Shown here piece by piece: positions 1-62,500 of a stretch of DNA of 64,000 nt. Source of the stretch: a virus. Position numbers and translations under genes: made by a program. Location of the stretch: positions 1 to 64,000 of IMG/VR virus record IMGVR_UViG_3300026292_000004, one strand, 5' to 3'. Positions within the stretch are counted from its first letter, which is position 1. Each line of letters begins with the position of its first letter. The notes under the pieces are model-generated. The model saw only the letters and a list, made by a program, of their open reading frames with translations. It had not been told where the DNA came from and did not search any database.

Positions 1-1162
1 ACTCTTTTCCGTCTGCTAAATCAGGACGCATCAGTATAGATCTGTTACCTAATGCTCTGGGACCTAGTTCACCATGTCCTTGATACCATCCAACAATTCT
101 ACCATCAGCAATATACTCAGCAACCTGTGTAATAGTTTTAGGTGATGGTCTCTCAGCAGGTGCTTCATCATCTTGCCAGAATGGGAATCCACTTCTATCA
201 AATTCAGGTTGCTTCCACTGTCTTCTTAACCACTCAACTATACCAAGTGTTAGACCTTCATCAGCACAGTGTGGTATAATATTTAAGTTTGGTCTTACCT
301 TTTTAATCTTAGAATTTACGATAGTATTGAGAGCAACCCCACCACTGTAGAGTATAGTGTCATTAGGTCTACTACTCTTTACGAAATGATTTACAAGAGT
401 ATCTTCTGTAACACTATGACAGAATTGAATTTGATCTAGTACCTTATGATCTTCTTCCTCACCTTGGTGTATTAAACGTTCAATATATTCTAGGTTCCAT
501 AGATCCCTTATACCTTCAATACCCATATCATAGGTATGACATTCTAATTTAGTTTTTTCTAAACACTCAGGTGTCAATCTACCATAGGCTTTTAATGCCA
601 TGACTTTACCTGCCATGTCATGTGGACTACCTTGTAACTTTAATATATGACCACCAAGATCCCCTAACACTCCACCAAAACTAGGTGCATCATTAGTAGT
701 ATATCTTTGAAATCTTTCATCACCATGATATGCAGTGAAGGTTATCTTATCATCACCAAATCCATCATACACAAAATTAACATCCGATTCAATACCAAGT
801 GGCCATGCACTTAGCATATGAGCATAGTGATGATCTATTCTATAGATGGGACAGTCATACCCAATATCTCTGAAGACTGGTATTTCAATTTGTTCAAATA
901 ACTTCTTCTCGTCTGTCTGTATCCTTGGGTACATATGACAGTCTAATACTATACCAATAGCATCAACGTCTTTAGGATCAAAAGTCTCTCCAGTTCTACA
1001 ATATGAATAACGCTCTAGACTATGTGCCCACGATGTTAAATCCTGTGGTGCATAATGCTTTTGTTGCAAATCTCTTTCATGTTTATAGTACCATACCTTA
1101 TCATCAACAGTATAAGTGATACTACTATCATGGTCACATAATCTTAATCCTAAGAAGTTCAT
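1..1162 (-). CDS. Carbamoyltransferase (NodU/CmcH/TobZ family), 3' end runs off the window
   Basis: Not in the ORF track. Read manually from ATG at 1162: [17 protein letters not shown]... Contains [41 protein letters not shown] and [20 protein letters not shown], which are hallmark motifs of this family. Confidence 0.9.
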
Positions 1163-41580: not shown

Positions 41581-44500
41581 TTATGGGGCGGGTGTACTTG
41601 ACCATATGCTTGTTACAGCGAAGGTTCCAACTGTAGTACCTGTACCCGCTGGAGATGATCCTTGTCCAGGAATGTCTCCACTGTCCACGTTGGCAAGATT
41701 TTCGGGTGTTACATTAATAACATCAGTATCAACAACCTCTTCTTTATAAAGAGCTTCTTCACCGTATGCACTGAGATCTGGAGCAGTCCATTCATCAGCA
41801 ACCACGTTAGTGATAGTAACACCAGGATAATTATAATTTGAACCAGGGGCGGTTGTATCTACACGAGAAACACCAACCAGTGCTTTAACTGCACCATCAA
41901 AACCAGATGCACTGTCAACACGGATAACTGGACGTGCGCTGAATCCAGATCCAGGATTGGTTACCTGAACAGAATCAATTCTATTCTTAACGATAGCAGC
42001 ATTACCTTGAGCATCACGACCAAATACAGATCCGATATACTCAAATGTTACTAGTGTATTAGAAGATTCAATGACAGCAACTTCTCTATCTTCAGTCTCA
42101 CCTTGAATGTCTAAGAGGTCACCTGCCTCAATTGGAGGAACAATCTCAGACTGCGTAACGTCAGCATCAGAACCAATGTATGCGAAACCAACGAATGTTG
42201 ATCCTACACGAGGAGTTTCTTTGAAAACGACACGAGAACCAACAAGTTCAAAACCGATTCCAGGTTGCTGAATAACACCGTTAAGCGAGATAATGATGTT
42301 GTTGTCTGCGATAATAGACTCAGTTGCCTGTACACCTTCAGTAAGTGCGATAGAGTAGAATGTACCGTCACGCTTAAGGTTGAAGGATGATCTCAATGAG
42401 TCAAACTCAAATGATATGTCATCCAACTGACGCATCTTACCTACGTAGAAACCAGTGAAGGAAGAACCAATGGTAGGTGCTTCGTTGAACTGTATGATGT
42501 CAGAGAATGCTGTGTATGAACCAGCCGCGCCTGGAGGTTGTAGAATACCATTCACAAAGACCATCATGTGACCTTCAGGATCTGGGAAGTATGGAGTACC
42601 GTTTTGCTCAGTTAGTTTGAACTGTGTTTGTGTACCATCAAATCCAACGAACCAACGCTTAGTACGTCCTACGACATCTATCTTCTCACTAGATGCTGCT
42701 TTATATCCATCATCAGAAATGATAGTATCATTTCCAGTAAATGTTCCAACAACATCACTTAGATACACACGATTTGTTAATCCAATTTCATCAATTCTAC
42801 TGACTGTACCGTAAGCAGTTGTAGTTGCGTTAACTGTAGTAGATACCTGACCATAAATTATTGGACTTGAAGTTTCACCTAATTGGTATTGACCAATATA
42901 TTGACCATTAGCGAATGCTGAAGATCCTATTGGTGACACGTACAAGTAATTATTTGCATCATCCCATCCAGTAACAATACCATATGCACCACCGTCAATT
43001 ATTGACTGATTATTGTTTGCTTGATAAACATACTGACCAACAGAGAAGTCAAGAGTTGCGTTAGCACCTGTGAGAGTAACACCTAAGCGTGTGTAACCCG
43101 TAGCAACAACCTTATCACCCGTAGCAATATTTGCTGCTATTGAAGGATGCTTAGTAACATCTAAGTAAATTCTAGTAGCATCTGGGTAAACAACTGAATT
43201 CTCTTCAAATGCACCTACGACACTCTCAGTATCAATTGTAAGTTTACCACCAGTATTATCAAGAACTGCACCTTCATTCTTATTGAATGCTACGATATCT
43301 GCCTTAGCACCACTACTATAACCCTTGAATGAGTATCCTGCCTTCATCTCATTAACGAGATTAATAACTTGGAATCTATCAACGATAGTTTGAATACCCG
43401 CGTTAGTTAAAGTACCAACTTCAAATGTGATATTTGGAGCACCACCATTACCTAATAGTGCATCAGGAAGTGTTAATACATCACTAACACCATATCCAGT
43501 ACCACCATTAGCAATTGTAATATTAGCAGCACCTTGATCATCAACAGTTATGTTAAATGTTGCGTTAGAACCATTACCACCTGTAGCAGCGATACCATCG
43601 TAAGAACCTTGAGTTCTATTTACGTTAGCACCTGCATTTGTTAAGTTCGTAATAGATCCAACAAGGTTAGTACCACCTGCGAGAGCAGCACCAGAAGTTT
43701 GACCTGTAATTCCTAGGTATTGTGTGAATGTACCTGCACTGATTACAACGTCCATATAACGGAAGTTATCATCAGAAGAAGTAGCATAAACAACACCTGT
43801 TATAGCAGCGTTACCAGTGATTTGTATGATTTCACCTAAAGCGAAGTCTGCATTACCACCACCTAGAGTAACTTGATCTGCTTTGAAACTAAATCTCTTA
43901 AAGATCTTAGCAATTCTTGCTTCGTTACTTGTAACTTTCTCAATTTCAGCATAACTATCAGATCCAACAGCATAGAAGTGATCAGAACCAACTATTTTTT
44001 GTCCAAGTCCTACAGGAACGTTTCTAGTACCACCAGCCACGTACGTAGTTGTTGGAAGTGTTACACCAACATAACCAGTTTGTTGCTCATAGAAACTATC
44101 ATCTACAAGTTGTGACTTATAAAGTCTGATAGTATTCTTGATACGGAACATTACTTCAGGTGTATCATAGTATATGTTCAATTCTGGTTTGTAAGCAGGT
44201 ATTGTTCCAGAATCAGGAGCAGGATTAATCAAATTATTATTGAGTTGCTCCTCAACAAAGTCCTCAAATTTATCAAGAATATAGTTCTTAATATTAAATT
44301 CATCAGAGATATAGAACTTCTCACCAGCCTCAGACTGATAGATGTCTAGGAATCCCTTATTAAGTTTAGCACCCCAGATAAATGAACCCTTAGTACCATC
44401 ACCCTCAGAACCACCACCAGCTAAAGTACCAGTATTATTGAGCATGTATTCCTTCATAGTGATAGTAGAAATACCGAATGGAACACGAATTGTTATGAAT

Positions 44501-47500
44501 GGTCGGAACCAACCAAATCCATAAGGTTTAACACCCCAGTATGTTCCCTTCATACCATTTGAATCTGAACCATCACCAACAATTACGTTACCGTTAATGA
44601 ATAGTGAAGGACCAATAGCACCTGTTACTGCATCCCATGTAAATTCTGCCTTATCGGTAGCACTCCATGAAATACTATGACGGAACTTATAATACTCATC
44701 TTGCTTAACAAAGCAACTGAATGTATATTCCTGATAGGATAGTGAAGAACCTTCGTCAAACTTGTTGATAGCATCATCAAATTTGATTGTGTCCTTATCA
44801 AAGGTATCATATGTTGGTAGTGTAAATTCTCTTTCAATTACCTTAGCACTAGTATTAGCACCAGGAATATACTTGTCAGCAGTCATAGTGCCGTCTGGTG
44901 CAACACCTATATCATTAGAAATAGTACCACCAGTTACAGTCCAACCACCAGCATCAAAAGTCTCTCTTTGACCACTTGGCCAGATATTATCTGATTGAGT
45001 CTCACCTGAGACTGGTGATTGTATTAGACGTATATTTTTTAATGCTGCGGTATTGTTGAGGGTAGCAGTAGTTACTGGACCTTCAATACATTCTTCATCA
45101 GCACTCGTAAATGTATGAGTGAAATCACCACCAGTTTGTATCGCATTAATAGCAGCACTTTGTCCAGCAACAAATGTATGTGGGTACTGATCAGCAGTAG
45201 CAGCAATACCAACATTAACAATAATAGTACCATCTTGCTTCTTAATACCGTTAGGTGTACATGTTACGTACGTGTGTAAAGAAGTATCAGGTGAAGCACC
45301 AATATTAACAGAAAGCTGATCAGCACTAATGATTGTAGGTTCTAACCACTTTTGACTCCAAGGATCAGTTGATCTTGGATAAGCATGAACACTAATCTCA
45401 TTATCTAACTGACACTTGAATGTGATTGCTCCATCCTCAAATTTAATCAAATCACCAGCAGAAAGACCGTGGTTGTTGATGTCAAGTGTTAATATACCAT
45501 TATTAGGATTATATGAAGCAGTATCAGGATCATCTACATTATCTGTACCTACTGATTTAATGTTAATTGACTTATTATAGAATGGGTCAGTTGTACGTGG
45601 GTATGTTTGGTTACCACCACCTTGAGTACAAGTGAATGTCAAACTATTAGGTGCAAGTCTAATACTAGTACCAGCAAGCAATCTATGACCAGTCATCACT
45701 GCACCAGGTAGACTGGAAGCATATGTATGAGATAATGGTACGCTAATAGCACCCTGACCACCGTTAACGTTAACTGTAATAGTTGTAGAACTAGTTCCTG
45801 TAATAGCGAGTCTGTTCTTGGCAGCATAATCTATACCACCTACAGCACGAGAACCAGTTAATCTAGGATACGCAGATTGAGTTTGATTACTTTGTCCAAC
45901 ATCAACAGTAACAGTTGTTCCAGTTACAGCATCAATTGATAATATTTGTCCAGATGCAGGGTCGGAAGAACGAGGATAAGGGTGCTGTGTAGCATGACTA
46001 TCAGCATCGCAAGTAAAGATGACTGCCTGATCATCAATCTCAAGAGTATCAGAAGTAGTATAACTATGAGATCCAATCTCCAATACTAGAAGTCCAGTAG
46101 CAGGAGTATATGTTGTACCAGCAGCAGCAGTCTTTTGACTTAAAGTTCCACCAACATCAAAGGTTAATCCATTAGTTACACCAGTAACAAATGTATGAGT
46201 ACCTGTTGCAGCAGCACAAGTAAAGGTGAGAGATTCTGGTTTAAGACCAATGGTATCATCAGTAGTCAATCCATGATTAAGACCAACAGTCAACTCCATA
46301 TCACCACTTGTGGCATTGTATGTTGCGTTAGTTACATCAAGTGCCCCAACTGTCAACTCCATATCACCAGTAGTATGGTTATAATCAGCAGCAGTAGGAG
46401 TATAAGTTCCAGCAGTTGTCTTACCAACATCAACCGTAATAGTATTTGTGGTTACAGATTCAACAGCAATATCTTTCTTATAGAATGGATCAGTTGGTCT
46501 TGGATATGAATGGTAACTACTATCATCATCCATTGCACAAGTAAATGTCAATGAATTTGGTTTGATTTGAATTACATCATTCTGTTTCTGGAGACAATCA
46601 CTAAGTGCTGTCTGGAAAGTATGAGCAGTAGTGTTAGAAGATATTCCTACATTAACCACAAAAGTATTTGTAGTTACTCCTGTAATAGTCAACCATCTAC
46701 CACTAGCAGGGTCAGATGATCTTGGATAAGTCTTAGTTACACTATTGTCTTGAGCACACTTGAATGTTAATGAATTATCATCAAGTTTAATCTTATCACC
46801 ATTACTAAATCCATGACCACTTAAAGTGATAGTCATTGCACCTGTAGCAGGTGTAAAGGCAGCACCAGTTGGTGTATGCTTAGTATATGGTGTCATTCCA
46901 TGACCAGCAATGGTCAGTACCAATTTACCTGTTGAAGGAGTATATGATACATTAGTTGGACTATAAAGTGTACCAATTAAATCAGGTGTAGAAAGTAAAT
47001 CATAGATTGCATCATCTTTAACCTGAGTTAAGAATGCAGTTTCTTCTTCCTCTTCCCAAACTCCACCCCAGTCAGCGATGGTAGAAGACCTAATCTCTTC
47101 TTCAAAGTATTCATCACCAACAAGTATTTGTAGTGCTGATTCACGACCTTGCTTACCAGAAGGTACAAGAATCTCAATTATAGTTTCAATTAAAGTATCA
47201 ATAGCAGATTGAACATTAGCACAATCTTGAGCAGTATAATCAGTACTATAACCATCATCCTGAGAATCAGTTATAGTTAAATCTGTAACAGCAGGAATTA
47301 TGTTTTGATCAGTAAATCTACCAACATAATGTTCTGGAGATAATTGACCAGCACCAGTACTCTGAAGTAAGTTATTAACTGCTTTCTTACAAAGGAATCC
47401 TACTCTTTCAATTGCCTCAGCAGTTTGAGCAAGTTGATCTTCAACCTGTACAATATTTTGAGATGTATCAAGGAACTTCTTAGCAGCTTCTACAGAACTG

Positions 47501-50500
47501 TAGTTACCACCAACAAGAAGGTCAGAAGCAATAGAGTCAACAATAAGAGTCATATCTCTGACACACTTATTCTTACCGTCAGTATCGCCACCTGGATAAT
47601 TAAATACTCTGACATCATTACTACCAGCATCCTGATAAGTAAATTTCTCTTGCATTAAACCAACTGCTTCATTACCAATGTAATCCTTGTTAAAGATCAT
47701 CAAATCAGCAGCATCAGCATATCTATCACCAGTTGGTGAAAGAGTACTATTCATTAAAGTAATAAGAGTATCAATAGAGGTTTTAACATTAGCACATCCA
47801 CCACCATCAACAGTAATTCCAGCAGGAGGAATAATAACATTAGTAGAGTAATTAGCAACTAGAGTTCCGTCAATTGCTGCCTTAGCATAGAATGCTAAAC
47901 GCTCATGAGCATATAGTGATTGTAGAAGTTGTAGTCTAATGTGAAGTATCTCACCATTAGAACCAAGATAGAATCTAAAGGCAGTAACAGTATTTGCATT
48001 ACCACCATACTCTAAATCTTCTGCAATAGCATCAAGAATTAAACCAAGGTCAGTCTTACAACGTATTGTACCAAGACCAGAAGCACCACCTTCGTTTCTA
48101 GGCATATCCTGTACAAGATCAGGATAGCGATTAAGCATATCACCAGCAGTCTCGTCAACAATAACAGTTGCATTAGCACGAATTAGATTCGCGGCATCCT
48201 TATATCTGTTAAGTGCATCTGGATTTAATTGATTACTTACAAATAAGTCATCATCTGGGAATTCCTTATCACAAGTAAATTCACTAGTAACATAAGCATC
48301 AACTACACCACCACCAGTTTCACTAGTAGGAGCAGTTCTAGTTACAGTACCAAGATGATCACTTGGTGTTAATGAATCTGCATTAAAGATAGTATCAGAA
48401 ATAATACCAGTGTATGTTGTGATAGCAGTTGCTACATCCTGACAATAAGGATTAGCGGTATCTGTAGTGATTGTATTATCAATTACCTGCTCATAACCAT
48501 GATCACCTGTGATTGATATAGCGTCTCTACGCATCACATTGATCATGAAATCACGAACCTTACCAATTGCCCATACAGTCTCACCCTCTTCACCTGAAAT
48601 ATGATTAATAAGTATATTATTAGTATCTGCACGATTAACATAATATGCAGCAGTATCCCAAGACTTACTGTTACCTTCGTTACGAAGATCATAGCATATT
48701 GCCTTAACCCACTCCTTAGCATCTCTAACACACTTAGAGAATGATGGATGAGTTCTTTGAATAAAGTTAACTGAACTTGGATATTCAATTGTTCTTAAAG
48801 CACCAGGATCAGATAAAGTATCTGTCACGATCTTCATCAAAGCATCAAGACGTGCATTTGCTTCAGGATATCCACCATAAACGAATGGAATATTTGAATT
48901 AGTTTGCTGAATTTCACCGTGAGAAGTAATTGCATTATCTTCAGAACTTACAAATGTATGTGCATAACCACCACCAGTCTTAACAGCACCAGCAGCAGCA
49001 CTCTGGAATACATGAGTATAGTTACCACCAGCAATTACAGCACCAGCAGATGCACCGATGAATGTATGTGCTGTAGGTGAACCTACAGAAGTAATTGGTT
49101 TTACATCAACTGTAATAGTTCCAGTCTGTGTCTCAAGACCATTAGATGAAGCACTTATAAATGTATGTTCAAAATCTCCAATACTAGTTTGACCAACTTG
49201 AACATCAAATGTATTATCAGTTATATTACTGATTGCTGTCCACTTATTACTAATAGGATCATTTCCTCTAGGATAAGTATGAAGTGTCTGATGTAAATCT
49301 TGATTACATGTAAATGTTAATGAGTTATCTAATATTCTAATCTTATCTTGATCAGTAAATCCATGATTAGCAATAGTTAGTCTTAAAATACCAGTAGAAG
49401 CAGTATATGTTGCACCTGTTACTGTGTGCTGGTTCTTACCAATAGCAGTAATAGGAAGTGCTCTCTGCCAAGCATAGTCAGCACCAGATGGTGTACCACC
49501 ACTGTAACTAGAACCTGTGCCACGAGGATATGCAACCTGTACAGGTGAACCACCGTAAGTACACTGGAATGTTAATGAACTATCTGCTAGTTTAATACTC
49601 TGTGCTTCAATTAAGTCATGAGTTCCGATATTAAGTACCAAATCACCAGAGGTGAAGTTATAAGTTGCACCAGCAACATCATATAGAACTTGAGGTGATG
49701 CACCAACATTAACTGTAATTTCACCAGTCTGCTTCTTAAGAGCATTACCTACACAACTGTTAAAGGTATGAACAGAAGTATCTGGTGACTTACCAATTTG
49801 TATGTCAAATGTATGTGTTGTTAGGTTCTCAATTGGGATCCACTGAGATGCAGAAGGATCTTTTGGTCTTGGATATGAATGATATGAAGTATCACCATCT
49901 AACTTACAAGTAAACTTCAGAGCTTCGTTATCAAGTTTAACCTGATCACCAGCAACCTTAATACCATTAGAAGCAGAAGATTGCCATACATGAGTATAGT
50001 TTCCACCAGTTCTAACAACAGAAGTTAGAATACTATTGTTTACAGCATTAACGAATGTATGTGTATAGTTACCACCACTTGTTATAGCATTAGATGAAGT
50101 ACCACCAACCCATGTATGTGTTGATACGTTAGAAGAAATACCAACGTTAACAGTAATAGTTGTACGAGTTACACCATCAACATAGATTGTTCTATCATAG
50201 TATGGGTCTCTCTGAATTGAAATACCATTTGCAGTAGCAGACTCAAATATATGAGTATCTGGGTTTGTAGAAGGTGCAAGATCTAAAACTTGAACTTTAA
50301 ACGTAGTTGAAGTTACATCAAAAATTGGTAACCATCTACCACTAGCATAATCACTTCCACGAGGATATGAGTGGTTAGTAGCATTACCATCCTTAGCACA
50401 CTTGAATGTTAATGAATTATCTGCGATCTTAATCTTCTCACCATACTTGTAACCATGAAGAGGTACAGTCAATGTCAAATGTCCTGTAGCAGGATCATAT

Positions 50501-53500
50501 GATGCAGTATTAACTGTAGAAGTATCAATTGTATTTCTTGGATAAGTATGAGTTGTTACACCATCTGGTTCAGCGAGAGTAGCATCTTGCTGACACTTGA
50601 AGGATAACTTATCCTGTCCAATCTTAATACCTTGTCCTTTCTTAATTCCGTGGTTATGACCAACAGTAAGAACCATCTCACCTGTATTTGGTGAATAAAC
50701 TGCATTAGTTACATCATGGTTAACTAGAGGTGTTGTACCAACAGGAACAGTAATTGTATTAGCATCTACAACAGTAACATCTAACCACTTGTTAGCAACT
50801 GGATCTGTTGAACGAGGATATGCATGAACAGTTTCATGATGATCCATGTCACATGTAAACTGAAGTGCATCCTCAGCAATCTTAATTCTACTTGTACTTT
50901 CAAGTCCATGACCAGTAATAGTCATCTGAAGAGTACCGTTACCAGGATTATATGTTGCAGCAGTAGGTGTTAATCCTACAGCAGGAACAAACTTATGGGC
51001 AAACTGGTTACCACCAGATCCTACATTTACATTAATAGTAATAGTAGTTGGAGTAACTCCCTTAATATTCAATGCTGCATTATAAGCAGGATCAGTTGAT
51101 CTTGGATACTTATGAGTAGTAGCATAACCATCATTAGAACATGTAAATTCTAAAGATTCTTTTGCTAGTTTAATAGCAGTTCCAACCTTAAGATCGTGAT
51201 TACCAATCTCAAGTACTAAATCACCACCAGTATGATCATATTCAGCATGAGCAACATGGAAATCTTTAAGAGGTGACTTACCAACATTAACTTTGAATAC
51301 TGTAGTACTGTCAACATCTACATCTAACCACTTACCGAAAGTAGGATCACTCTTACGTGGATAGGTCTTATTACCAGAACCCATTGCACAACTAAATGTG
51401 AATGCACCTTCTTCAAATCTTACACGAGCACCGTTAGCAAGACTATGAACACCAGTTGTAGTAACTGACAATTCTCCAGTTGCAGGGTCGTATGTTGTTC
51501 CAGAAGCACCTGTTAGATTAGTTGGTCCACTCCAACCATGATTTTGAATATCAAGAGTTAGAACACCTGTTTCAGGATTGTACTTAGTACCAGCAGTACC
51601 AATACCAACATTCATTGTAATGTCGTTTCCAGCCTTAGTGATTGGAATAGTTCTACTCCAAGTAGCATCTGAGGTTCCTGTTCCTAATGTAGTAAAGATT
51701 GGGTCGGTTGCTCTTGGATATGCATGGTTAGTAGCATTTTGATCAAGATCACAAGTCATTGTTAGTGAACTTACCTTCATGTTAATGAAGTCACTAGCAG
51801 CAAGTGAATCTGTACCATCAGCACCAACAGTAAGAACTAGGTTACCAGTTTCAGCAGTATAAACTGCATTAGTTACTGTATAAGTATTGCCTGTAGCACT
51901 AGCATCTCTGATACCGCCACTAAGAGCAGAAACAAATGCATGGTTACCAGCAACTACTGTATGTTGAGTTTGACCAACAGCAGTAATAGGAATATTTGTG
52001 TTATGTACTGGATCAGTTGATCTTGGATAAGTCTTATTAGTATTCTGACTATCCATGTTACACTGGAATGTCAGAGAGTCAGTATCAATCTTAATAGCAT
52101 TACCAACATTCATATTGTGCTTACCAATATTGAGTGTTAGATTACCATCAGCAGGAGTATATGTAGCAGCAGATACATCATGTCCGACTTCAGGAGAAGC
52201 ACCAACATTAAATGTAACGTTACCATCTTGTCCTAAAAGTCCATGTGGAGCATGAGACTTGAATGTATGATTATAAGCACCACCATTGTATACAACTGCT
52301 CTTGATACACAATTGAATACCGCAGAAACAAATGTATGAACTGTATTATTAGAAGTAATTCCAACGTTAATAGCAAATGTATCTGTAGTGACCTTACCAA
52401 TCTTCATCCACTTACCGCTAAATGGATCGGTCTCTCTTGGATAAGAATGCTGTGTCTTATTATCGTCAGTAGCACAAGTGAATACTAAACCAGCATCAGC
52501 AACCTTGATATATTCACCACTTGCAAATGTATGACCAGCAAGAGTTAGAGTCATCCAACCTGTAGCAGGATCATAATCAGCATCAGTTGGAGTATACTGG
52601 TTGTTAGCATTAACAAATTGATGAGTACTTGTATTGGTTGGAGTAGTACCCTGTAATGCATTAACCTTAATAATACCACTCTGATACTGAAGACCATTAG
52701 CAACAGCACTGTCAAATGAATGAACAGTAGTGTTAGAAGAAACTCCTACGTTACACTTAAAGGTATCAGCATCTACTACCGTTACTGTAATCCACTTACC
52801 ACTTATAGGGTCAGTAGATCTTGGATATGCATGAGTACCACCACCAGCAGTACAAGTAAACACGATTGAACTGTCTACTATTTTAATTCTTTGACCAGAA
52901 ACAAATCCATGAGCAGCAGATGTAATTGTTAATAAACCTGTAGTAGGTTCGTAAGTTGCACCAGTTGCTGTCTTAGCATTAGTTCCAATATCAGTAATCT
53001 TAAGGAACTTATTGTATGCAGGATCAGTTGTTCTTGGATATGACTTATTAGTGATGTAGTTATCACTGTTATGGTTACAAACAAAGTTTAGAGAGTTGTT
53101 TGCAATCTTAACATACTCACCAACAGAGAAGTCATGATCTCCAATAGTAAGTTCTAGAACTCCAGATGCAGGTGTATAAGATGCACCAGTAACACCAAAT
53201 CCTTCAATATTTTCACCAGTACCAGTTTCAATACAGTTATTATCAGCACGAACAAATGTATGTCCAGATGTATTAGAAGATACACCAACGTTAACAGTAA
53301 TCTTACTGTCTCTTCTTATAATACCATTTGCAGCAACTGCTGTACAGTTATGATTAGAAGTGTCTGAAGACTTACCTATTTGAACATCAAAACTATCTGT
53401 AGCAACAGCATCAATACGTAACCATTGACCACTAGCAGGGTCAGTTGGACGTGGATATAGATGATTACTACCGTAACTATCAGTATTACACTGGAAGGTT

Positions 53501-56500
53501 AAGGACTCATCAACAATCTTAACGTATTCACCGACAGTGAAATTATGACCTGTTTGTCCAATTGTTAGAACACCTGTAGTAGGTTCGTAGTCAGTATCTG
53601 ACTGAGCAGCAGTATATGGTGTACCTTCATACTTAATAGGAATTGAAGTATCATATACTTTGTCACGTTTCTGTTGAATACCATCAGCAACACCAGAAAC
53701 AAATGTATGAGTGTAGTTACCACCAGTCTGTACAGCACCAGCAGAAGCAGAAACGAATCTATGCTCTGTCTGATCTGTTGAAGGAGCAGATGGAAGAACC
53801 TGCATACTAATAGTCATGTCCTGACCAGTAACACATCCAGCAGTACAAGATACGAAAGTATGCTCTGTTGCGTTAGTAGAAGGTACAGAAGCAAGAATCT
53901 GAACATCAAATGTATCAGGAGTTCTATTGAATACAGTTAACCACTTACCACTTGATTCATCAGTTGCTCTTGGATAAGAATGTACTGTGTCATGATTGTC
54001 ATGATCACATGTAAAGCTAAGAGCATTGTTTGCAATCTTGATCTTATCACCATTCTGTACAGGATGATCCTTAATAGTTAAGGTTACATGACCTGTATTA
54101 GGATTATAATCAGCAAATGTAGGTGTTAAAACAGCATCGCCAACCGCAGTGATAGCAATGGAAGTGTTGTATGTAGCACTATCATTACCATTATTTCTAG
54201 GATAAGTCTTAGTTGTTGCGTGATTATCGTTGTTATAATCACAAGTAAATGTTAATGAATCCTGAGCAAGTTTAATTGCATCACCCGCAACCATTCCATG
54301 AGTACCAATGGTAAGTTCCATGATACCTGTGGTTGGGTTGTATGCAGCATCAGTTGGTGTATAGTTTACAGCAGGTGACTTACCTACATTAACAGTAAAT
54401 CTTGTTGTACTAGGAACACTCTCAACTTGTAACCACTTATCATATGTTGGGTCAGTCTGACGTGGATATGCCTTATTAGAACTACCACCGTCCATTGTGC
54501 AATTAAATGTGATTGCACCTTCATTAAACTTGATCCAATCACCTACTTGCATACCATGTGTAGCAGCAGTAGTAACATCTAAAACACCAGTTAAAGGAGC
54601 ATAAGTTGAACCAGATGCTGCCTGATGAGTATCAATAGCTGTACGAGGATAAGTATGCTCAGTAGCATTACTATCTAAAGCACAAGTCCAAACTAATGAA
54701 TTGGGTTGAATCTTAATTGTCTGACCAGCAGCAAGACTATGAGTACCAATATCAAGTACCATATCTCCTGTAGTAGGATCATAAGTACCAGCAGAAGGAG
54801 TAAATGTGTATGATAAACTCTTACCTACATTAACTTCAAAACTGTCTGGATTTGAATTAGAAATCTTTAACCAACGACCATTCCAAGGATCAGTTGTTCT
54901 TGGATAGTTATGATCAGTATGATGATCATCTTGATCACATGTGAATACTAATGACTTACCAAGAATCTGAACACTATTACCATCTACAAATTTATGTCCA
55001 GGAACCCATAACTGAAGTATTCCAGTCTCAGGATCATAAGTTGCATTATCTATAGTATGAGATGTAATACCAACTTCTTTAATTGCATTCTTACGTAAGT
55101 ATGATTGATCTTCAAGACGAGGATATGTGTGCTCAGACTTATTACCGTCCATTGCACAAGTAAACTTCAATGAGTTAGCAGTAACACATGCACTACCATT
55201 AGAACGAGTAGAGTTAACTATAAAGTTGTGTGATTTACCAATATCTACTGTAAGATCACCAGATACAGGTTCATAAGTTGCATCAGATGCCTTAAATCCA
55301 TTATACTGAAGAACTGGAGAGTTGTTGATTACTCTCTTAGCAATATCTCTTGCTTCATTAAATACACGAATTGAGAAACTTTCTTTACCCTTAAGGTGAT
55401 CAAGTTTAGCATTATTAACATATAATTTAGCAGCATCATAGGTCTTATTGTTAAAACCATATGTTAGGTTATAAGAAATATTACGAATAATATCTTTTAC
55501 GTCATCCTTACAATCTATAGGACCAGTTCCTGGAGGTGGTTCTGGTGAAATACGATCATATGCTTCAGCAGCAATGAAATCTAAGTTACTATTGATAACA
55601 TCGTAGAATTCCTTACCGTAAGTAATAGGTACTTCAGTATCAGGATGAGGAATGTGTAATTTAACAAACTCTTTATCAGTCTGATAAATTGCTTCATTAG
55701 CAATCAATTCAACGTTGTTTAATATCTCAGTTGAAGCATCAAAGAATCTGAAGGTAGTATCTCCAGTTAAGAACTGATCACCTTCGTTCCATGTAGGTAC
55801 TCCAGACCAATCTTGGAAAGTAGTAGATAGGTTAGCACCATCAAAGTGTACTAAGAGGAGAGTATTAATATCTCCTTGATGCATATAAGTTGCATTAGTA
55901 AAGTTAGTAGTGTAACGCTTATTATTAGATACTCTTAATTCATCAACATATCCTTGGAACTGGTTAGCAGCAGCGTGATCTGCACCAACCTTAATTGGTT
56001 TTGTAGTACCATAATCAGTAGCATTAGACCAAGTAGAACCTACCTGAGTTCCATCTAAGAACATTCTATGATTGTTTCCGTCTCTAGAAACTGCTACATG
56101 ATGCCATGTATTTTGAGTTACAGTACCACCAGTAATTACATCAGCACCACTAACATGGTATTCTAATCCAGTACCATCAAGTCTTATGCAAGGTGATGCT
56201 TCTGAAGCTTGAGTTCTAAAGTCAATTAAATGCTGAGTACCAGTAACACTAGCAGCATAGAACCAACACTCAACTGTCCACTCACCATTTCCAAAACCAA
56301 ATTCAGTTGAAGTTGGAACTGAAACATAAGCAGAACCATTCAAATATAGAGATGCACTACCAAATTTCTTCTGTAGAGTTGCATTAATAGCACCACTTTG
56401 AGCAACAGGAACGTGTAAATCTGTACTACGACGTGCTACCTTACCAAGATAAAGGTATTTACGTGCATAGTTAGTACCAATTACTTGAGCAGTACCATTC

Positions 56501-59500
56501 TCACTACGGATAATATCACCAGTTAAAATTAAACCATCAGGAGTAACTTTAGGTTCATCATATGCAAGTTTGTATAGACGAACTGTTTCTCCATCAATTA
56601 AATCGCCTGAGATGTTAGAGTAGTTAACAATGTGGTTACGAATATCTTCGTCAACTGTAAACGTACCAGCAGCATTATTATACTCTAGAATTAAGTTACT
56701 TACAACTTCAGAATTAGGGAACTTACTATTAAATTCAGTATTCTTATCATTAACATCAGTTAGTTGTAACTGAGTCTGTGAAACATTATCAAGAATAACG
56801 TTCTGGAAATTAATATTAGTAATTCTGTTGAATACTAATCCTTGGAAAGTAGATCCTTCAGAAATAATAACTTGGTTATTTGGTTCATTAGTTACAGGAT
56901 CTCTGTATGCAGAAATACCAATAACTTCAGCAACAATATTACTCTTCTGACCAATGATTATATCACCAATAACAATATCAAATAAACCAGCAGTAGACTG
57001 ATAAGTACCAGCAGTCTTACTTAATAATACAGTATCTCCAATCTCAATAGTTGTTCCAAAGACATTACTATCAGTTTGGTGACCTACAACAGCAGTTCCA
57101 TCAACACCTCTGTTAGCAGTAACAGTGTTACCAACTATAGTTGCCACCTCAAATCTCTCAGAATCAATCTGATAAACTCCACCAGTATTAGCAACAATAG
57201 TAACAGTAGCATCTTGATTACCACCACCACTAATTGTAATTACATCTCCAAGAGCATATCCTGTACCACGTTCCTTAATCTTAGTTGCAGTTATTACTCC
57301 ACTACCATCTGCATCAACAGTAACAGTCATTCCAGTACCAGATCCACCTGATGTAGATACACCATCAATATTATCAATGTATCCAGTACCAGCAGTAGTT
57401 AATGTTACCTTAGAAAGTGCATATCCAGAAGCAACATCAAATGTGTTACCAGATGCAGAAAGACCAGCAGGGATAGTAGTTAGAACCTGACCATTATCAC
57501 CTTCTAGGTTAACTCTTTCAATCTTAGCATTGTCCCCTCTAAGGTTCTCAATATCTTCTTTAAACTGGAATAAGTTAGTATTTGTGATAGGATCAATACT
57601 ATCAACGTTTGCAGTAAATCCTGTAGCAGATGAAGTGATAGCCTCACCTTCATATGTAAGAGTTGTAGCAGGATCATCAACCTGGAAAGGTTGACCAGCA
57701 GTAGTCTTATAATAGAAGTCAACAGTTGTTAAACCAGTAGCAACAACAATTGCCTCATAATCAGTTATAATACCTCTAATAGTACCACCTACAAGTGGGA
57801 AAATACCAGAAATAGTACTTAAATTCGCTCTATAAAGAGTTTTAAACTCTAATGTAGCATTTGAATACTGAACATTAGCAGGAGGTTGAGGTGGTGATGA
57901 GAATACAACATTTGATCCCTGAACAGTAAATGCATCTCCAGGAGACTGTACAATACCATTCAAACTAATTAAGAGTTGATTAGCAGATGCAATAACAGGT
58001 TCTGTTACAACATTACCATCTTGGTTAATATTTTGAACAGTCAATCCAAATGAGATCTTCTCGCCATCAAACTGATCTGAAATATCATTAATCTTCTGAA
58101 CAGTAGAAGTTAGAATCTGCTCGGAAGAAGTCAAATTCTTCTGTCTGAAACGAACCTCAGTGTTATCAAATTCAGTATAAACTGGTTCAACTAGAGTAAA
58201 GTTCTGTAGATTTGGAACAATAGCAGATTCTGCAAGGTTAACTGACTTAGTAAGTTCAAATGCAGTCTCTTTGTTCTCAATAGTTGATTTTTCAACTAAT
58301 CCCAATTCACCAAATACCTTAAATCCAGCAGGGTGAACGTTAGTAATAAGGATGTCTCTCCAGTCAGATATTGAAACAGGAGCCTTAACACTATAGGAGA
58401 AGTCCTGATAGAAATAAGAGTCTTGAATCTTCTGAATGATTTCTGAAGGTTTACCTACATCATCAACGAATCTACCTGGAGTTGTAGTGATAGCACCAAC
58501 TTCTAGGACACCCTTAGCAATACTAAAGTTATCAATTGTACCAGATGCCTTGGAAATAGTACCAGTAACAATCTGATTCTTACTAAATGTACCAGTATAA
58601 TCAACAATCTTAAGAATTCTAGGTCCAATTTGCCAACCATCATTCTCTGAAACGTATCCAGTTGCAGTTGCATTTTCTAATGTATCACCTTGATAGATTA
58701 ATTCACCAGCAAGGAAACGACCAGTAACAACGTTTGCAGTAGCAGCACCACCGAATGAATCTGTTAAAACGACCTGTCTACCAGTACCAGCATTAGTATA
58801 TGAAATATAATCACCAATTGCAGCATTATCTTTAGTAATTGCTAAACGCAATTGATCATTTTCTAGTGAATTACTAATACCAGAAATAGCATAATATGTT
58901 GTATTGGCATTCAATCTACCGAAAGATGAGATTGGTAGTTCTGGATCATCTCCACTACCATCATCATTAGAAGTTAATGTTACAGCAGAACCATTTACAA
59001 TACCATGTGGGAACGAGAATTGTAGTAAATTAAGGTCAAGGTTAACAACATAGTTAAAGGATGACTTCAAAGTTACAGCAGGTTGTGAGGAGTAACCTGC
59101 ACCTGGATCCTTAACTTCAATAGCATCAATACGTCCGTTCTTAATAGATGCCTCAGCAGTTGCTCCTGAACCTCCACCACCAGCAATAATAACAGCAGGA
59201 GGGGTAGCATATCCAGAACCTGGGTCAGTAACAGTAATACTATCCAGTATGTTTGTACTAGTTAACTGAACGTTGACTGGGAATGTGATTTCAGGACGTA
59301 ATGTATAGTCATGAGTATAATCAAAACCGAAGTTGTTGTTCTTAAGTTTCTTAATCTTACCGATCTTATCTGCTTTAACGAAGACAGATGCACCAGTTCC
59401 ATTTGGAGGAATAACAACAGTTAATTCTGCACCAGAACCAGTAAGTCCAGCACCTAAAATACCAGTGATAGACTCAATGTCAATAGTTGCAGTAGTATAA

Positions 59501-62500
59501 TTCTTACCTGGATCAGTAACGATTACCTCAGCAATCTGACCTGGAATGTTGTTACCTTCATCATCCTCACCATCAGCAACAGTAATATTAACCTTACCAC
59601 CTTCTCCATCACCACTAATAGGTACTCCAGTGTATTCTCCTACAGCATATTCAGTACCTGGTTCAGTGATTGCAACTCTTTCAATCTTACGATTGGAGAC
59701 AATTTGTGAAATAACAGGTAACTTCTTGTAGAACCCACCACCATTTACTAGACGGATATCTCCAATTGGTCCAACTGCTTTAGTTGAGAATGTTGTATAT
59801 TTAACTAAACTTGCTTGAGCAGTACCTTCTGGTTCCGAAGTTAATGGGAACTTAAAGATTGTATCACCAGTAGTAATAGTACCACCACTAGTAGAGTATA
59901 TTACGAAATTGCCGTTATATGGTGTAGTTACAACATCCATGTAAGTACCAGCATCAACTGGAGATGTATCACCAGTTTTTGATGGATCAAAGTAATATGA
60001 TATATTTGTTACATCATTATTAATAGAAATCTGAACATAAGGTTCTGGTTGGTTTCCAACCTGATAACCTGGAGTTCCAACACGAGTAATTGAGTTGAAT
60101 GAATATTCTAACTTAAATAGGTTATCCTTAGAGAAGGACATGAAATATCCTTGCAAGGATGTATCACCAAGCATAAACTTATACTTGTGCTGATAATACA
60201 TCTTAAGTACAGGATGCTTGGCATATATGTCAATTGCCGAAGCAGCAACAGGTAAACCAACAGCAACTGCTCGTAAACCAACAATAAATGATCTAGTGCT
60301 TAAAACATTAGTAACATTGAATGATCCATTAAATTCCTCAAGATCATTACCAGAAATTAATAGATTATCTCCAACTTTATGGCGATGTGCTTCAGCAGTA
60401 GTAAAGTAAATCTTATCAGTATTAGCAGCATCATCAAGGATTATAATCTTCTCAAGATTAGTAATTAGAGTAATCTGAGTTACAGCAGTCAATTGATTAG
60501 GTGAAGCACCAATTGTTAACTGAGTTCTATCGGCATTCCAAGAAACAGTATCTGAAGTTGGAGTAATAACACTTCCAACAATATATGGAGATCCAGCAGG
60601 TGCAGTAGCATCAATTCTTACAGTATAATCATTAATACTATATTCCTTAAATCTAGCAGATAATCCACCAGGAATGTCAAATATGAATGTACCTTGTCCA
60701 GCAGTAGCATCATGATCCTGATTAGCAAAGGTTTGTGATGCAATTTCATTAACTTCAGTTCCAGTAGATACAATTTCTCCAGTATCTTCCCAACCTACCC
60801 AATCAGTAGCAGTACCGTAACTTGCAACATATACACCAGTAGAATCACTATCTACAATAGTAGCAGTTCCTATAACCTGCCCACCAGCATTCTTTTGTTG
60901 TAATTGAGATCCAACATTAAAAGTTGCAGGTTGATTGAATGTGAATTTAAGAATATTATCTGCTTGTATAGCATCAACAGTCTGAATATAAAACTTACCC
61001 CAAGTTAGTGGAGTTGCTTTAACCTTTCTACCACCAATAGCAGGTATAGTAGCAGTTCTAGTAGACCATACATCTGTAGTAGATGATATAGTTACAGAGT
61101 CAAGTACAAGAGTTGAGTTTGCATCATTGTAGTCTAGAACCTGTAAACCTTCACCTGCAAGTGTTAATGCTCCTGGATTAATTACCTGATCAGTAACATT
61201 ACTGTAGGTATATGCAGCAGTATTGAATTGCCACGTAGTATTAGTTCCAGTAAAGTCTCCTTGACGACTAGTATCAACATTCTTATCAGTCTTAAGTATT
61301 AAACTGCAATCAACAGCGTAAGTATATTTCTGGAGATAAGTATTAAAATCAGCAGTAGTAGAAGGAACTATAACCTGTATTACACGGTCAGTAATCTTAA
61401 ATCCATCAACATTAAATGATCCAGCAGTGGTAACAGTCAATCCTGAAGAAGCACTCTGCCAATTAGGTGAGTTACCCATGTAAATCTTAGCAGTAGTTGC
61501 AATATTGCTATTTCCTGGAAGAGTTCCTGTACCTACTTGAGTTCCATTAGCATATACAGTATAGACATTACCATTCTTAGTTAATGCAATATGAACATAA
61601 CCAACGTTGTTAATAAGAACATTATCAACACTAGCAATAGCACCAGCAGTTCTTTGAGTAGTAGCAGAAGCATACATCTCAATCCGCTTATTACTACGGT
61701 TTAACATGACCGTAATACCTGGTTCATTACCATGTCCTACACCAAATAGGATATGGTGACTAGATCCAGCAGTACCTAATCTAGTATCTTGCTGATCATT
61801 AGATTCATCAACTGAGAAGAATCCTTCAATTGTCCAATTACCATTAACATCAAATGAATCCTTGAATCCCCAAATACCTGTATTATTGCCTGGTTCTAGT
61901 TCAAAGTGAGTATCTGCCCATGCAGATCCATCCCAAGCATCAATCATCAAACCACCAGTACTACCCTTACCATTAGGAGCACCACTAGTAATATTAGAAC
62001 CTTTATAGTAATCTCCAATAAGATTTCTATTAGTAATGTTACCTGTTGTATCTACAGGTTCAGTTTCACTAGTTTGTTCAAAGTTAAAGAGTCCAATGAC
62101 TTCATTACGGAATGCTTGTCCTACAAAAATTGGGTCACCAGAAGCATCTGAAACAAAATCGTTAATTTCAAATCCAACTATATTTCTAGTAAATTTAACT
62201 ACATTAGTAGAAATTAAAGTACCATCATACTTAATCTTGGTAATTTCACTTTGCTTACGATATGCATCATACTCAGCAGTAGATTCGTTAACCTCATAGT
62301 TACATGCAACGTTATACTGTCCGAATACATCAATATTACCACCAATTGCCTTTAAATTTCTCCAAGTAGTTCCTCCAGTAGGAGTCCAACGCTTACCCCA
62401 AACAACAGTGTCACTAGTAGTTACTTTAGTAACAATTATTGAATTTGAGTTAGATGCAGAGTATGCAGTACCAGAAACATAGAAATCTCCAAATTCGTCA

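What the first reader, a model, noticed from the sequence alone, without database searches (positions are those of the whole stretch)
45076..46977. Second, independent nested tree of 6 YPR domains using additional insertion loops
Seen: E1[ E2, E3[ E4[E5], E6 ] ]. E2 sits after E1's HGMTP and E1 resumes at NDVIQIKPNSL. E4 sits between E3's MELTVG and GHRLLAG. E5 sits between E4's FTCAAA and NQTQSAYPR. The closers PHTFVAG and FTHTFTSA end the array. 634 aa / 6 = about 106 aa per unit. The balanced parse holds in a second place with different loops used, which argues for a general growth rule rather than chance.
Basis: seen in the sequence. Interest (0 to 1): 0.75.

Follow-up and report, generated by a model that had tools for sequence, protein, structure and literature searches.

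The report
Six self-nested beta-barrels in cyanophage baseplate protein
A 634-residue stretch of a giant baseplate-region protein of a marine T4-like cyanophage is built from six copies of one small beta-barrel domain, three of which are split open and carry further copies inside their loops; such self-nesting is rare and has otherwise been described mainly for cyanobacterial RNA polymerase.

Summary
The region is coding on the MINUS strand: residues 5675-6308 of a protein of more than 7,472 aa, in the baseplate-wedge gene cluster of a T4-like cyanomyovirus.

- **Six domain equivalents.** A 93-position profile built from contiguous repeat units finds pieces with complementary coordinates. E1 is profile 3-21 plus 22-92, with a complete E2 between. 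Spliced in silico, E1, E3 and E4 each give one full-length match.
- **E1[E2] folds confidently.** AlphaFold2 with 35 collinear homologues gave pLDDT 90.3 and pTM 0.80. The 20-residue N-hairpin of the split host scored 90-95.
- **E4 halves come together.** In a weaker model of the remaining stretch, E3 through the closing strands (pLDDT 68.5), the two halves of E4, 106 residues apart, superpose as one barrel on the phage phi92 endosialidase beta-barrel (Z 7.3, 2.4 A, 81 residues). Contiguous E2 matches the same barrel.
- **Closing strands balance.** Terminal "H-x-aromatic" strands equal YPR units in both arrays here (6:6, 20:20) and in four GenBank phages. This supports E1[E2,E3[E4[E5],E6]].
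- **Not shown.** E3's reassembly, and E1 closing last, are inferred and not shown structurally. Function (lectin-like host binding) is inferred only.

The closest known case is the Si3 insertion of cyanobacterial RNA polymerase. This scan has already noted the same architecture on other DNA, in at least 17 genomes, including orthologues of this very six-unit tree.

The parts
46888..46959 (-). E1 N-piece (aa 5681-5704): first beta-hairpin plus HG loop, profile 3-21
   Evidence: hit 5685-5703, hmm 3-21; pLDDT 90-95, strands 3-7 and 12-16
46582..46887 (-). E2 (aa 5705-5806): complete guest barrel inserted after E1's HG loop
   Evidence: 5713-5798, hmm 2-91, 114.7 bits; pLDDT 89-98; res 25-127 match the phi92 endosialidase barrel at Z 8.0 and UBA1 FCCH at Z 8.0
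46405..46581 (-). E1 C-piece (aa 5807-5865): strands from IQIK through ITVDVG, profile 22-~80
   Evidence: 5806-5877, hmm 22-92; pLDDT 84-98; spliced E1 scores 93 bits, hmm 3-92
46345..46404 (-). E3 N-piece (aa 5866-5885): lead-in strand YTPTAA plus first hairpin, profile ~1-14
   Evidence: strands 2-9 and 14-22, pLDDT 62-70; spliced E3 scores 57.5 bits, hmm 3-88
46207..46344 (-). E4 N-piece (aa 5886-5931): hairpin, HG loop, IGL and LTFTC strands, profile 1-~45
   Evidence: 5891-5932, hmm 1-41; model range 20..240 with 81 residues aligned to one 83-residue barrel
45889..46206 (-). E5 (aa 5932-6037): guest barrel, permuted; a d-type strand (THTFVTG) comes first and no d strand follows its c strand
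   Evidence: 5962-6040, hmm 2-80; pLDDT 82-89, strand 70-75; hits over model 67-174; same layout in L002 and L008
45691..45888 (-). E4 C-piece (aa 6038-6103): YPR, variant b region (GIDYA), c strand ITVNVN, d strand SHTYAS
   Evidence: 6037-6095, hmm 41-90, weak; spliced E4 scores 43 bits, hmm 1-90
45526..45690 (-). E3 middle piece (aa 6104-6158): HG loop through b strand, profile 15-70
   Evidence: 6102-6155, hmm 15-70, 40.4 bits; pLDDT 60-75
45235..45525 (-). E6 (aa 6159-6255): complete guest barrel inserted between E3's b and c strands
   Evidence: 6160-6248, hmm 1-92, 111.9 bits; model 286..390 vs UBA1 FCCH, Z 7.0, 78 residues
45154..45234 (-). E3 closing piece (aa 6256-6282): c strand IIVNVG and d strand PHTFVAG
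   Evidence: homologous closers detected at hmm 65-92 in many loci; (pLDDT 70 falling to 45)
45076..45153 (-). Final d-type strand (aa 6283-6308, GGDFTHTFTSA), assigned to E1 by the count rule
   Evidence: d strands equal units in 6 of 6 arrays; not resolved by the profile or by the model (pLDDT <50)
41581..63999 (-). Host gene: giant virion structural protein (>=7,472 aa, 5' end outside the window) in the baseplate-wedge cluster
   Evidence: PHROG 701 and 18802, E = 0; neighbours are baseplate wedge subunits; T4-like cyanomyovirus synteny

Best explanation
Residues 5675-6308 of a giant baseplate-region virion protein of a T4-like cyanomyovirus form six copies of one beta-barrel domain of about 93-100 residues (the 'YPR' domain). 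No Pfam family covers it; its fold resembles the endosialidase and E1-FCCH six-stranded barrels. The copies are wired as a tree, not a string.

Shown:
- E1 is interrupted after its HG loop by a complete E2.
- E4 is interrupted between its FTC strand and YPR by E5, a permuted copy. E4's halves are modelled as one barrel.

Inferred from profile coordinates, homologous modules and strand counts:
- E3 is interrupted before its HG loop by E4 and between its b and c strands by E6.
- E3 itself sits between E1's c strand and E1's last strand, giving E1[E2,E3[E4[E5],E6]], four levels deep.

Why the fold tolerates insertions (inferred from strand pairing in the secondary-structure string; no coordinates were available): a guest's N- and C-terminal strands lie side by side, so a whole barrel can hang from a host surface loop without disturbing it.

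How the arrays change (partly shown): the same few loops are used again and again across phages. Arrays differ between phages by whole barrels and by recombination at conserved motifs.

Likely role (inferred, about 40%): a compact, branched, multivalent cluster of lectin-like barrels on the baseplate periphery that binds host surface polysaccharide and varies with host range.
For: **Coding and context**
- One open frame on the minus strand.
- PHROG virion structural protein families at E = 0, with baseplate wedge neighbours.
- Synteny with S-SSM4 and S-SSM6b.

**Complementary profile pieces in nested order**
- E1 is hmm 3-21 plus 22-92, around a full E2.
- E4 is 1-41 plus 41-90, around E5.
- E3 is 15-70, followed by a full E6.
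- Spliced pieces give single full-length matches.

**Structure**
- AF2 of E1[E2] with 35 collinear homologues: pLDDT 90.3, pTM 0.80. The host N-hairpin scores 90-95. Host and guest have the same strand order.
- E2 matches the phi92 endosialidase barrel residues 256-340 (Z 8.0, rmsd 2.3 A, 83 aa, 20% identity) and UBA1 FCCH (Z 8.0).
- In the model of E3 to the end, 81 residues spread over model 20..240 align to the same 83-residue barrel (Z 7.3, 2.4 A). That range is E4-N plus E4-C with E5 skipped. E5 (67..174) and E6 (286..390) hit barrels separately.

**Count rule**
- d-type strands equal units in array 2 (6:6) and array 1 (20:20).
- The same holds in the second arrays of S-SSM4 (3:3), P-TIM40 (3:3), S-RIM44 (4:4) and S-H9-2 (4:4).

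**Generality**
- 56 occurrences (34 non-redundant) of the 21/22-split module.
- A triple nest at site 14/15 in L115.
- Other split types occur too.

**Conservation**
- Orthologues L001 (90%) and L098 (83%) are collinear over 634 aa, with dN/dS 0.23 and 0.33.

**Mosaicism**
- P0123 is near-identical through E1-N, E2 and the start of E1-C, then switches at SLTFTCAMD to a different, longer array.
Against: - The model of E3 to the end is only middling: mean pLDDT 68.5, pTM 0.50, with the other four models at 46-58. It was built from 5 rows, three nearly identical. E3 pieces score 55-75 and both closing d strands score below 50.
- No coordinates were available, so contacts between E1's two pieces are inferred from confidence values, not measured.
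- The profile cannot tell whether E1 is closed by the nearby YTPTAA strand or by the far FTHTFTSA strand (93.0 vs 94.2 bits).
- A simple stack parse of raw profile hits is significant only in some proteins: W 4 of 6 continuations (15/2000 shuffles reach this), L008 10/13 (0/2000), L003 7/10 (5/2000). Others are not significant, because short pieces escape the profile.
- Fold matches are at Z 7-8, which the tool notes is common for unrelated barrels.
- Pfam matches to End_beta_barrel and E1_FCCH are below threshold and found in only 2 of 101 units each. The lectin-like role is therefore weakly grounded.
Confidence: 0.8

Rival explanations
1. Shallower tree. E1[E2] is closed locally by the YTPTAA strand and is followed in tandem by E3[E4[E5],E6]. 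The last FTHTFTSA strand is then an extra capping strand of the array, not part of E1. Depth is 3 instead of 4.
For: - The profile aligns GTYTPTAA to the d position of E1 as well as it aligns the far strand (93.0 vs 94.2 bits; hit 5806-5877, hmm 22-92).
- E1 is modelled at pLDDT 84-98 without any confident d strand.
- In 11 of 35 homologous modules the host is followed directly by such a strand plus the next hairpin.
Against: - Every complete array checked has exactly as many H-x-aromatic d strands as units (6:6, 20:20, 3:3, 3:3, 4:4, 4:4). An unowned extra cap would break that balance.
- In S-SSM4 the first unit likewise lacks a local d strand, and one surplus d strand ends the array.
- The YTPTAA-type strand also precedes guests such as E2 that have no preceding unit, so it belongs to the following unit.
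Confidence: 0.15
2. The split pieces do not refold in cis. Either they are decayed remnants of partial duplications that now act as linkers, or they are completed in trans by another copy of the protein (domain swapping in an oligomeric fibre).
For: - Many phage fibre proteins are intertwined trimers (established knowledge).
- The oligomeric state of this protein was not tested.
- E3's pieces are modelled only at pLDDT 55-75.
Against: - The pieces are exactly complementary in profile coordinates and keep the invariant residues (H, C, YPR, D, H).
- They are under purifying selection.
- A monomer model packs E1's hairpin at pLDDT 90-95, with pTM 0.80.
- A monomer model assembles E4's halves into one barrel.
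- The same split modules are conserved at 40-49% identity in 34 sequences.
Confidence: 0.04
3. The balanced parse is a chance pattern in a low-complexity, Thr/Gly-rich tandem repeat.
For: The repeats are compositionally biased. Short closers fall below the profile's detection limit in this window.
Against: All the quantitative tests above.
Confidence: 0.01

Closest known systems
Si3 insertion of cyanobacterial RNA polymerase beta' (RpoC2): eight sandwich-barrel hybrid motif (SBHM) domains
   Same: - Copies of one small beta domain are not in simple tandem. Several are discontinuous and built from distant parts of the chain: SBHM-2 to -5 in T. elongatus (PMC10895346).
- A 2026 survey calls this a six-level nest, the most complex case it found (PMC13114784).
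- Host and guest belong to the same family, as here.
   Different: - Different protein (transcription enzyme vs virion baseplate protein).
- No RNA polymerase chain appeared among the top 50 structural matches, though that is not an exclusion.
- This six-unit tree is branched, includes a permuted unit, and has a second tree of 20 units in the same protein.
- Arrays vary by whole barrels between closely related phages.
Beta-barrel domain of phage endosialidases (Pfam PF12195 End_beta_barrel; PDB 4hiz, 1v0e)
   Same: - Best structural match of both a contiguous unit (Z 8.0, 2.3 A, 83 aa, 20% identity) and the split E4 (Z 7.3, 2.4 A, 81 aa).
- In endosialidase the barrel is itself an insertion into another domain and carries a sialic-acid site (established knowledge of K1F endosialidase; not re-read here).
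- Both are phage host-recognition proteins.
   Different: - Sequence match is far below Pfam's threshold (18.7 vs 35 bits), and only 2 of 101 units match.
- The endosialidase has a single barrel, not self-nested.
- Ligand-binding residues were not compared.
FCCH domain of ubiquitin-activating enzyme E1 (Pfam PF16190; PDB 4p22, 2v31)
   Same: - Six-stranded barrel that is an inserted domain.
- Z 8.0, rmsd 2.5 A, 76 aa; Z 7.0 for E6.
- PF16190 is precomputed on many relatives of this protein.
   Different: - 9-12% identity, and only 2 of 101 units reach E <= 0.01.
- Unrelated biology; probably only a shared common fold.
Giant 'virion structural protein' of Kyanoviridae (PHROG 701 / 18802; e.g. 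S-SSM4 CYXG_00059, P-TIM40 PTIM40_99)
   Same: - Same gene family and position.
- Each has a second YPR array at the same place, between the helical region and the C-terminal domain.
   Different: - Those phages have 3-4 units there (nest depth 2-3). This phage and its two close relatives have 6 units, with two extra insertion sites in use.

Membership tests
Recursively self-nested domain insertion (as in RNA polymerase Si3) | Host and inserted domain belong to the same family | tested here: met
   All six units match one 93-position profile. Spliced hosts score 43-94 bits full length; guests score 88-125 bits.
Recursively self-nested domain insertion (as in RNA polymerase Si3) | Discontinuous pieces of a host come together as one folded domain | tested here: met
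   - E1: pLDDT 90-95 for the isolated N-hairpin, pTM 0.80.
- E4: 81 residues from model 20..240 superpose on one 83-residue barrel at 2.4 A.
- E3: only modest confidence.
Recursively self-nested domain insertion (as in RNA polymerase Si3) | An inserted domain is itself a host (depth of 2 or more) | tested here: met
   E3[E4[E5]] by profile coordinates, and E4 around E5 in the model. Depth 4 depends on the E1/E3 assignment.
Recursively self-nested domain insertion (as in RNA polymerase Si3) | SBHM fold | tested here: inconclusive
   The top 50 structural matches are other six-stranded barrels, with no RNA polymerase chain listed. Absence from the list is not an exclusion.
Pfam PF12195 End_beta_barrel | Sequence score at or above the gathering threshold (35 bits) | tested here: not met
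   E6 scores 18.7 bits, E 0.0017. Only 2 of 101 units reach E <= 0.01.
Pfam PF12195 End_beta_barrel | Same fold as the solved endosialidase barrel | tested here: inconclusive
   Z 8.0 / 2.3 A / 83 aa and Z 7.3 / 2.4 A / 81 aa against 4hiz_A residues 256-340. Z of 7-8 is common for unrelated barrels.
Pfam PF16190 E1_FCCH | Sequence score at or above the gathering threshold | tested here: not met
   No hit for the window's units at E <= 10. 2 of 101 related units hit, best E 0.0063.
PHROG 701 / 18802 giant virion structural protein of cyanomyoviruses | Significant full-length profile match and conserved position in the baseplate module | tested here: met
   E = 0 over several segments. Neighbours match the baseplate wedge subunit and connector families. 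Orthologous genes in S-SSM4 and P-TIM40 are annotated as structural protein.
T4 gp7 baseplate wedge protein | Homology of the core to T4 gp7 and one copy per wedge in the baseplate | not tested
   The N terminus lies outside the window. Only PHROG 'baseplate wedge subunit' labels on segments are available. Stoichiometry cannot be tested with these tools.

The most novel reading that the evidence does not exclude
The YPR barrel is a self-hosting domain. At least five of its surface loops accept a further copy of itself. They remodel the trees by whole-barrel gain, loss and recombination as a route to host-range change. That would be the deepest and most branched homotypic domain nest known, and a natural map of where a barrel tolerates insertion.
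Probability: 0.4. Interest if true: 0.75.

Novelty: new variant of a known kind. Interest (0 to 1): 0.6.

Why it matters
- **Protein architecture.** Self-nesting of one domain family several levels deep has been documented structurally mainly for RNA polymerase Si3. Here it appears in an unrelated barrel, in a virion protein, with branching and a permuted unit, and with dozens of natural variants of each insertion type. The variants form a ready-made data set on which loops of a small barrel tolerate whole-domain insertion, which is useful for protein design.
- **Annotation.** Tandem-repeat tools and domain callers mis-annotate such proteins as arrays of partial repeats.
- **Phage biology.** For marine phages it points to the hypervariable part of the largest baseplate protein as a candidate host-recognition organ.

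Tried and rejected
- **Foldseek against PDB.** Nothing at E <= 0.001.
- **Profile search of PDB sequences.** Only a chance hit at E 0.29.
- **Pfam on the segment.** No family at E <= 0.01.
- **Deeper alignment for E3/E4.**
  - Only two true orthologues exist in IMG/VR and the metagenome contigs.
  - The two protein searches found no closer fragments.
  - P0123 turned out to be a mosaic that leaves the array after E2.
  - Mixing paralogous modules into one MAFFT alignment always dragged them onto the majority block, so the second fold used 5 rows.
  - Adding contiguous 'GADYA'-type units paired E5-N with E4-C, so they were left out.
- **Complex prediction** (E4-N against E4-C, alignments A6 and A7) was not available, so nothing was folded and there is no verdict.
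- **Stack parse of raw profile hits.** Only partly informative, because short hairpins and closers score below zero.
- **Nearest-paralogue check of the unit cores.** Only 40-59% identity. E units are closest mostly to units of the first array, so there is no sign of recent local duplication. No full phylogeny was built.
- **Literature.** Searches for nested insertions in cyanophage or tail-fibre proteins found no description of this architecture.
Full report
**1. Where the finding lies**

The window is the structural module of a T4-like cyanomyovirus.
- Its first 20 kb match sheath, terminase, portal and capsid genes of S-SSM6b and S-SSM4 at about 76% identity.
- All long frames run on the minus strand. 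The + strand translation of 45076-46977 is full of stops.
- On the minus strand, the region is residues 5675-6308 of one open frame, 41581-63999, of at least 7,472 aa. Its 5' end is outside the window.
- The protein matches the cyanophage 'virion structural protein' families PHROG 701 and 18802 at E = 0.
- The genes downstream match the baseplate-wedge connector and wedge-subunit families.
- Pfam finds nothing in the 634 aa.

**2. The observation**

The protein has 26 YPR motifs: 20 in aa 2959-4909 and 6 in aa 5758-6207.

I built a 93-position profile from 12 uninterrupted units and scanned the protein. In the finding's region it reports, in order:

| Residues | Profile positions | Unit |
|---|---|---|
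| 5685-5703 | 3-21 | E1, N piece |
| 5713-5798 | 2-91 | E2 |
| 5806-5877 | 22-92 | E1, C piece |
| 5891-5932 | 1-41 | E4, N piece |
| 5962-6040 | 2-80 | E5 |
| 6037-6095 | 41-90 | E4, C piece |
| 6102-6155 | 15-70 | E3, middle piece |
| 6160-6248 | 1-92 | E6 |

The partial hits are complementary and ordered last-opened, first-closed. I joined the pieces inside a script and scored them against the profile. Each of E1, E3 and E4 then gives one full-length match, as does E5 once its leading strand is moved behind it:

| Unit | Bits | Profile span |
|---|---|---|
| E1 (spliced) | 93 | 3-92 |
| E3 (spliced) | 57.5 | 3-88 |
| E4 (spliced) | 43 | 1-90 |
| E5 (leading strand moved to the C end) | 93 | 2-90 |
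| E2 (contiguous) | 125 | 2-92 |
| E6 (contiguous) | 122 | 1-92 |

That makes six domain equivalents in 634 aa.

**3. Relatives**
- GenBank phages match only at repeat level, 32-36% identity.
- IMG/VR holds one orthologue (L001, 90% identity over all 634 aa). The metagenome contigs hold one more (L098, 83%).
- Both orthologues keep the whole arrangement. dN/dS is 0.23 and 0.33.
- The same profile run on related contigs shows split hits everywhere. Break points recur at profile ~14/15, 21/22, ~45, 52/53, ~69/70 and ~80.
- The module 'hairpin+HG / full unit / rest of host', which is the E1[E2] type, occurs 56 times, 34 at under 90% identity. These align collinearly at 40-49% identity to the window.
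- L115 shows three units nested at the same site before the HG loop.
- At the orthologous place, S-SSM4 and P-TIM40 have 3 units; S-RIM44 and S-H9-2 have 4.
- P0123, from a close relative, is nearly identical through the helical region, E1-N, E2 and the start of E1-C. It then switches at the conserved SLTFTCAMD motif to a different, longer array. So arrays are remodelled by recombination.

**4. Structure: E1[E2]**

AlphaFold2 on aa 5681-5880 with the 35-row collinear alignment gave mean pLDDT 90.3 and pTM 0.80. All five models scored 87-90.
- The host's isolated N-hairpin (residues 1-20) has pLDDT 90-95.
- Host and guest show the same order of strands.
- The guest's first and last short strands (26-28 and 123-125) flank it, as expected if its termini lie together.
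- The last 20 residues, which lead into E3, are at pLDDT about 60.
- VIA-align against 48,161 PDB representatives matched the guest (25-127) to six-stranded barrels. The best were the UBA1 FCCH domain (4p22_B: Z 8.0, 2.5 A, 76 aa) and the phi92 endosialidase barrel (4hiz_A 256-340: Z 8.0, 2.3 A, 83 aa, 20% identity).
- Foldseek found nothing at E <= 0.001. A profile search of PDB sequences found nothing.
- Pfam gives only sub-threshold hits to End_beta_barrel and E1_FCCH. The family is not a member of either by sequence. The fold similarity is a lead, at a Z value the tool warns is common.

**5. Structure: E3 to the end**

Only five collinear rows could be assembled, because MAFFT pulled any added paralogous modules onto the wrong barrel.
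- The model of aa 5866-6312 is middling: mean pLDDT 68.5, pTM 0.50, other models 46-58.
- By piece: E5 82-89, E4-N 64-80, E4-C 49-83, E3 pieces 55-75, E6 61-84, closing strands below 50.
- The fold search is still informative. The top match, again 4hiz_A 257-339, aligns 81 residues at 2.4 A (Z 7.3) over model range 20..240.
- A contiguous 83-residue barrel can only be laid on 81 residues spread over 221 if the alignment uses E4-N (model 21-66) and E4-C (173-238) and skips E5 (67-172).
- About 25 further single-domain barrels show the same 20..240 range.
- Separate matches cover E5 (67..174) and E6 (286..392).
- These ranges reproduce the parse boundaries to within a few residues. In the model, therefore, E4's halves form one barrel.
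- E3's assembly is not shown by this model.

**6. Who closes last**

Each complete unit ends in a strand with H-x-(F/Y/W).
- In the finding's region there are six such strands (at 5793, 5935, 6091, 6242, 6274 and 6295) for six YPR units. The first array has 20 for 20, counting HNC at 3553 and the HTF at about 5013.
- The second arrays of S-SSM4, P-TIM40, S-RIM44 and S-H9-2 give 3:3, 3:3, 4:4 and 4:4. Surplus strands are stacked at the array's end.
- This balance is what a nested tree predicts. It assigns the final FTHTFTSA to E1, so that E3 sits in E1's c/d loop.
- The strand at 5935 precedes E5, and E5 lacks one after its c strand. L002 and L008 have the same layout. It is modelled as a strand at pLDDT 83 together with E5. 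So E5 is a permuted unit.
- The profile cannot separate the near and far candidates for E1's last strand. I keep the shallower tree as a 15% rival.

**7. How it likely works**

A barrel whose ends lie together can hang from a loop of another barrel. Repeating this gives a compact, branched body instead of beads on a string. That much follows from the topology.

The role is inferred from four observations:
- The protein sits in the baseplate module.
- It also carries two ConA-like lectin domains (Laminin_G_3).
- The nearest fold is a phage carbohydrate-binding barrel.
- The arrays are the variable part between phages.

I therefore favour a multivalent host-surface binding organ (about 40%). The invariant His, Cys, Tyr-Pro-Arg, Asp and His could form a ligand or metal site; this was not tested.

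**8. Comparison with what is known**
- A 2026 survey of 48,551 insertion events names six-level nesting in cyanobacterial RNA polymerase as its most complex case (PMC13114784).
- The crystal structure of Si3 shows eight SBHM domains, four of them discontinuous (PMC10895346).
- The present case works like that, but in another protein and apparently another barrel. It also has branching and a permuted unit.
- My literature searches found no description of it in cyanophage proteins.
- Within this scan the architecture has already been noted in at least 17 other genomes. Two notes on orthologues of this very six-unit tree give the same parse. Those are unchecked AI notes and not independent evidence.

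**9. Tools that failed**
- No coordinates of the models could be inspected.

Noticed in passing
P0123 (metagenome protein, 1839 aa) vs window 46405-46581 (-): A close relative is nearly identical through the helical region, E1-N, E2 and the start of E1-C. It then switches at the conserved SLTFTCAMD motif to a different and much longer YPR array. This looks like a recombination mosaic within the repeats.
   Followed up: partly
window ~55918-56337 (-) and ~61456-61851 (-): Two Laminin_G_3 / ConA-like lectin domains in the same giant protein (Pfam E 1.2e-19 and 4.8e-8). They fit a host-surface binding role.
   Followed up: no
window 45076-46977 (-) and alignments A2, A5: One His (HG loop), one Cys (FTC), Tyr-Pro-Arg and an Asp are invariant across 101 diverse units. 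A second His (HTF strand) is nearly invariant. This may be a metal or ligand site. The residues' spatial proximity could not be checked without coordinates.
   Followed up: no
L115 aa 149-463 (IMGVR_UViG_3300030333_002570): Three units are nested one inside the other at the same loop (before the HG motif): hairpin, hairpin, full unit, rest, rest.
   Followed up: partly
P0017-P0054: A family of complete proteins of about 748 aa, on contigs up to 191 kb, shares YPR units at 35% identity over 57% of the query. The domain therefore also occurs in much smaller phage proteins.
   Followed up: no
relatives P0125, P0130, P0234; window ~46990-55750 (-): Precomputed Pfam PF00502 (phycobilisome protein) is recorded on relatives of the giant protein. 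It presumably lies in the helical regions that flank the YPR arrays. This is the subject of other notes of this scan.
   Followed up: no
window 46283-46369 (-): The hairpins of E3 and E4 both read GDMELTVG, 21 residues apart, right at the E3/E4 insertion junction. This may be a trace of how the insertion arose, by duplication of the hairpin.
   Followed up: no
L016 aa ~875-890 and L017 aa ~1215-1230 (S-RIM44, S-H9-2): The first unit of the second array has lost the YPR motif (it reads SAPQSHHY in one phage and HYLPESDQP in the other), yet it still has a matching closing strand at the array's end.
   Followed up: partly
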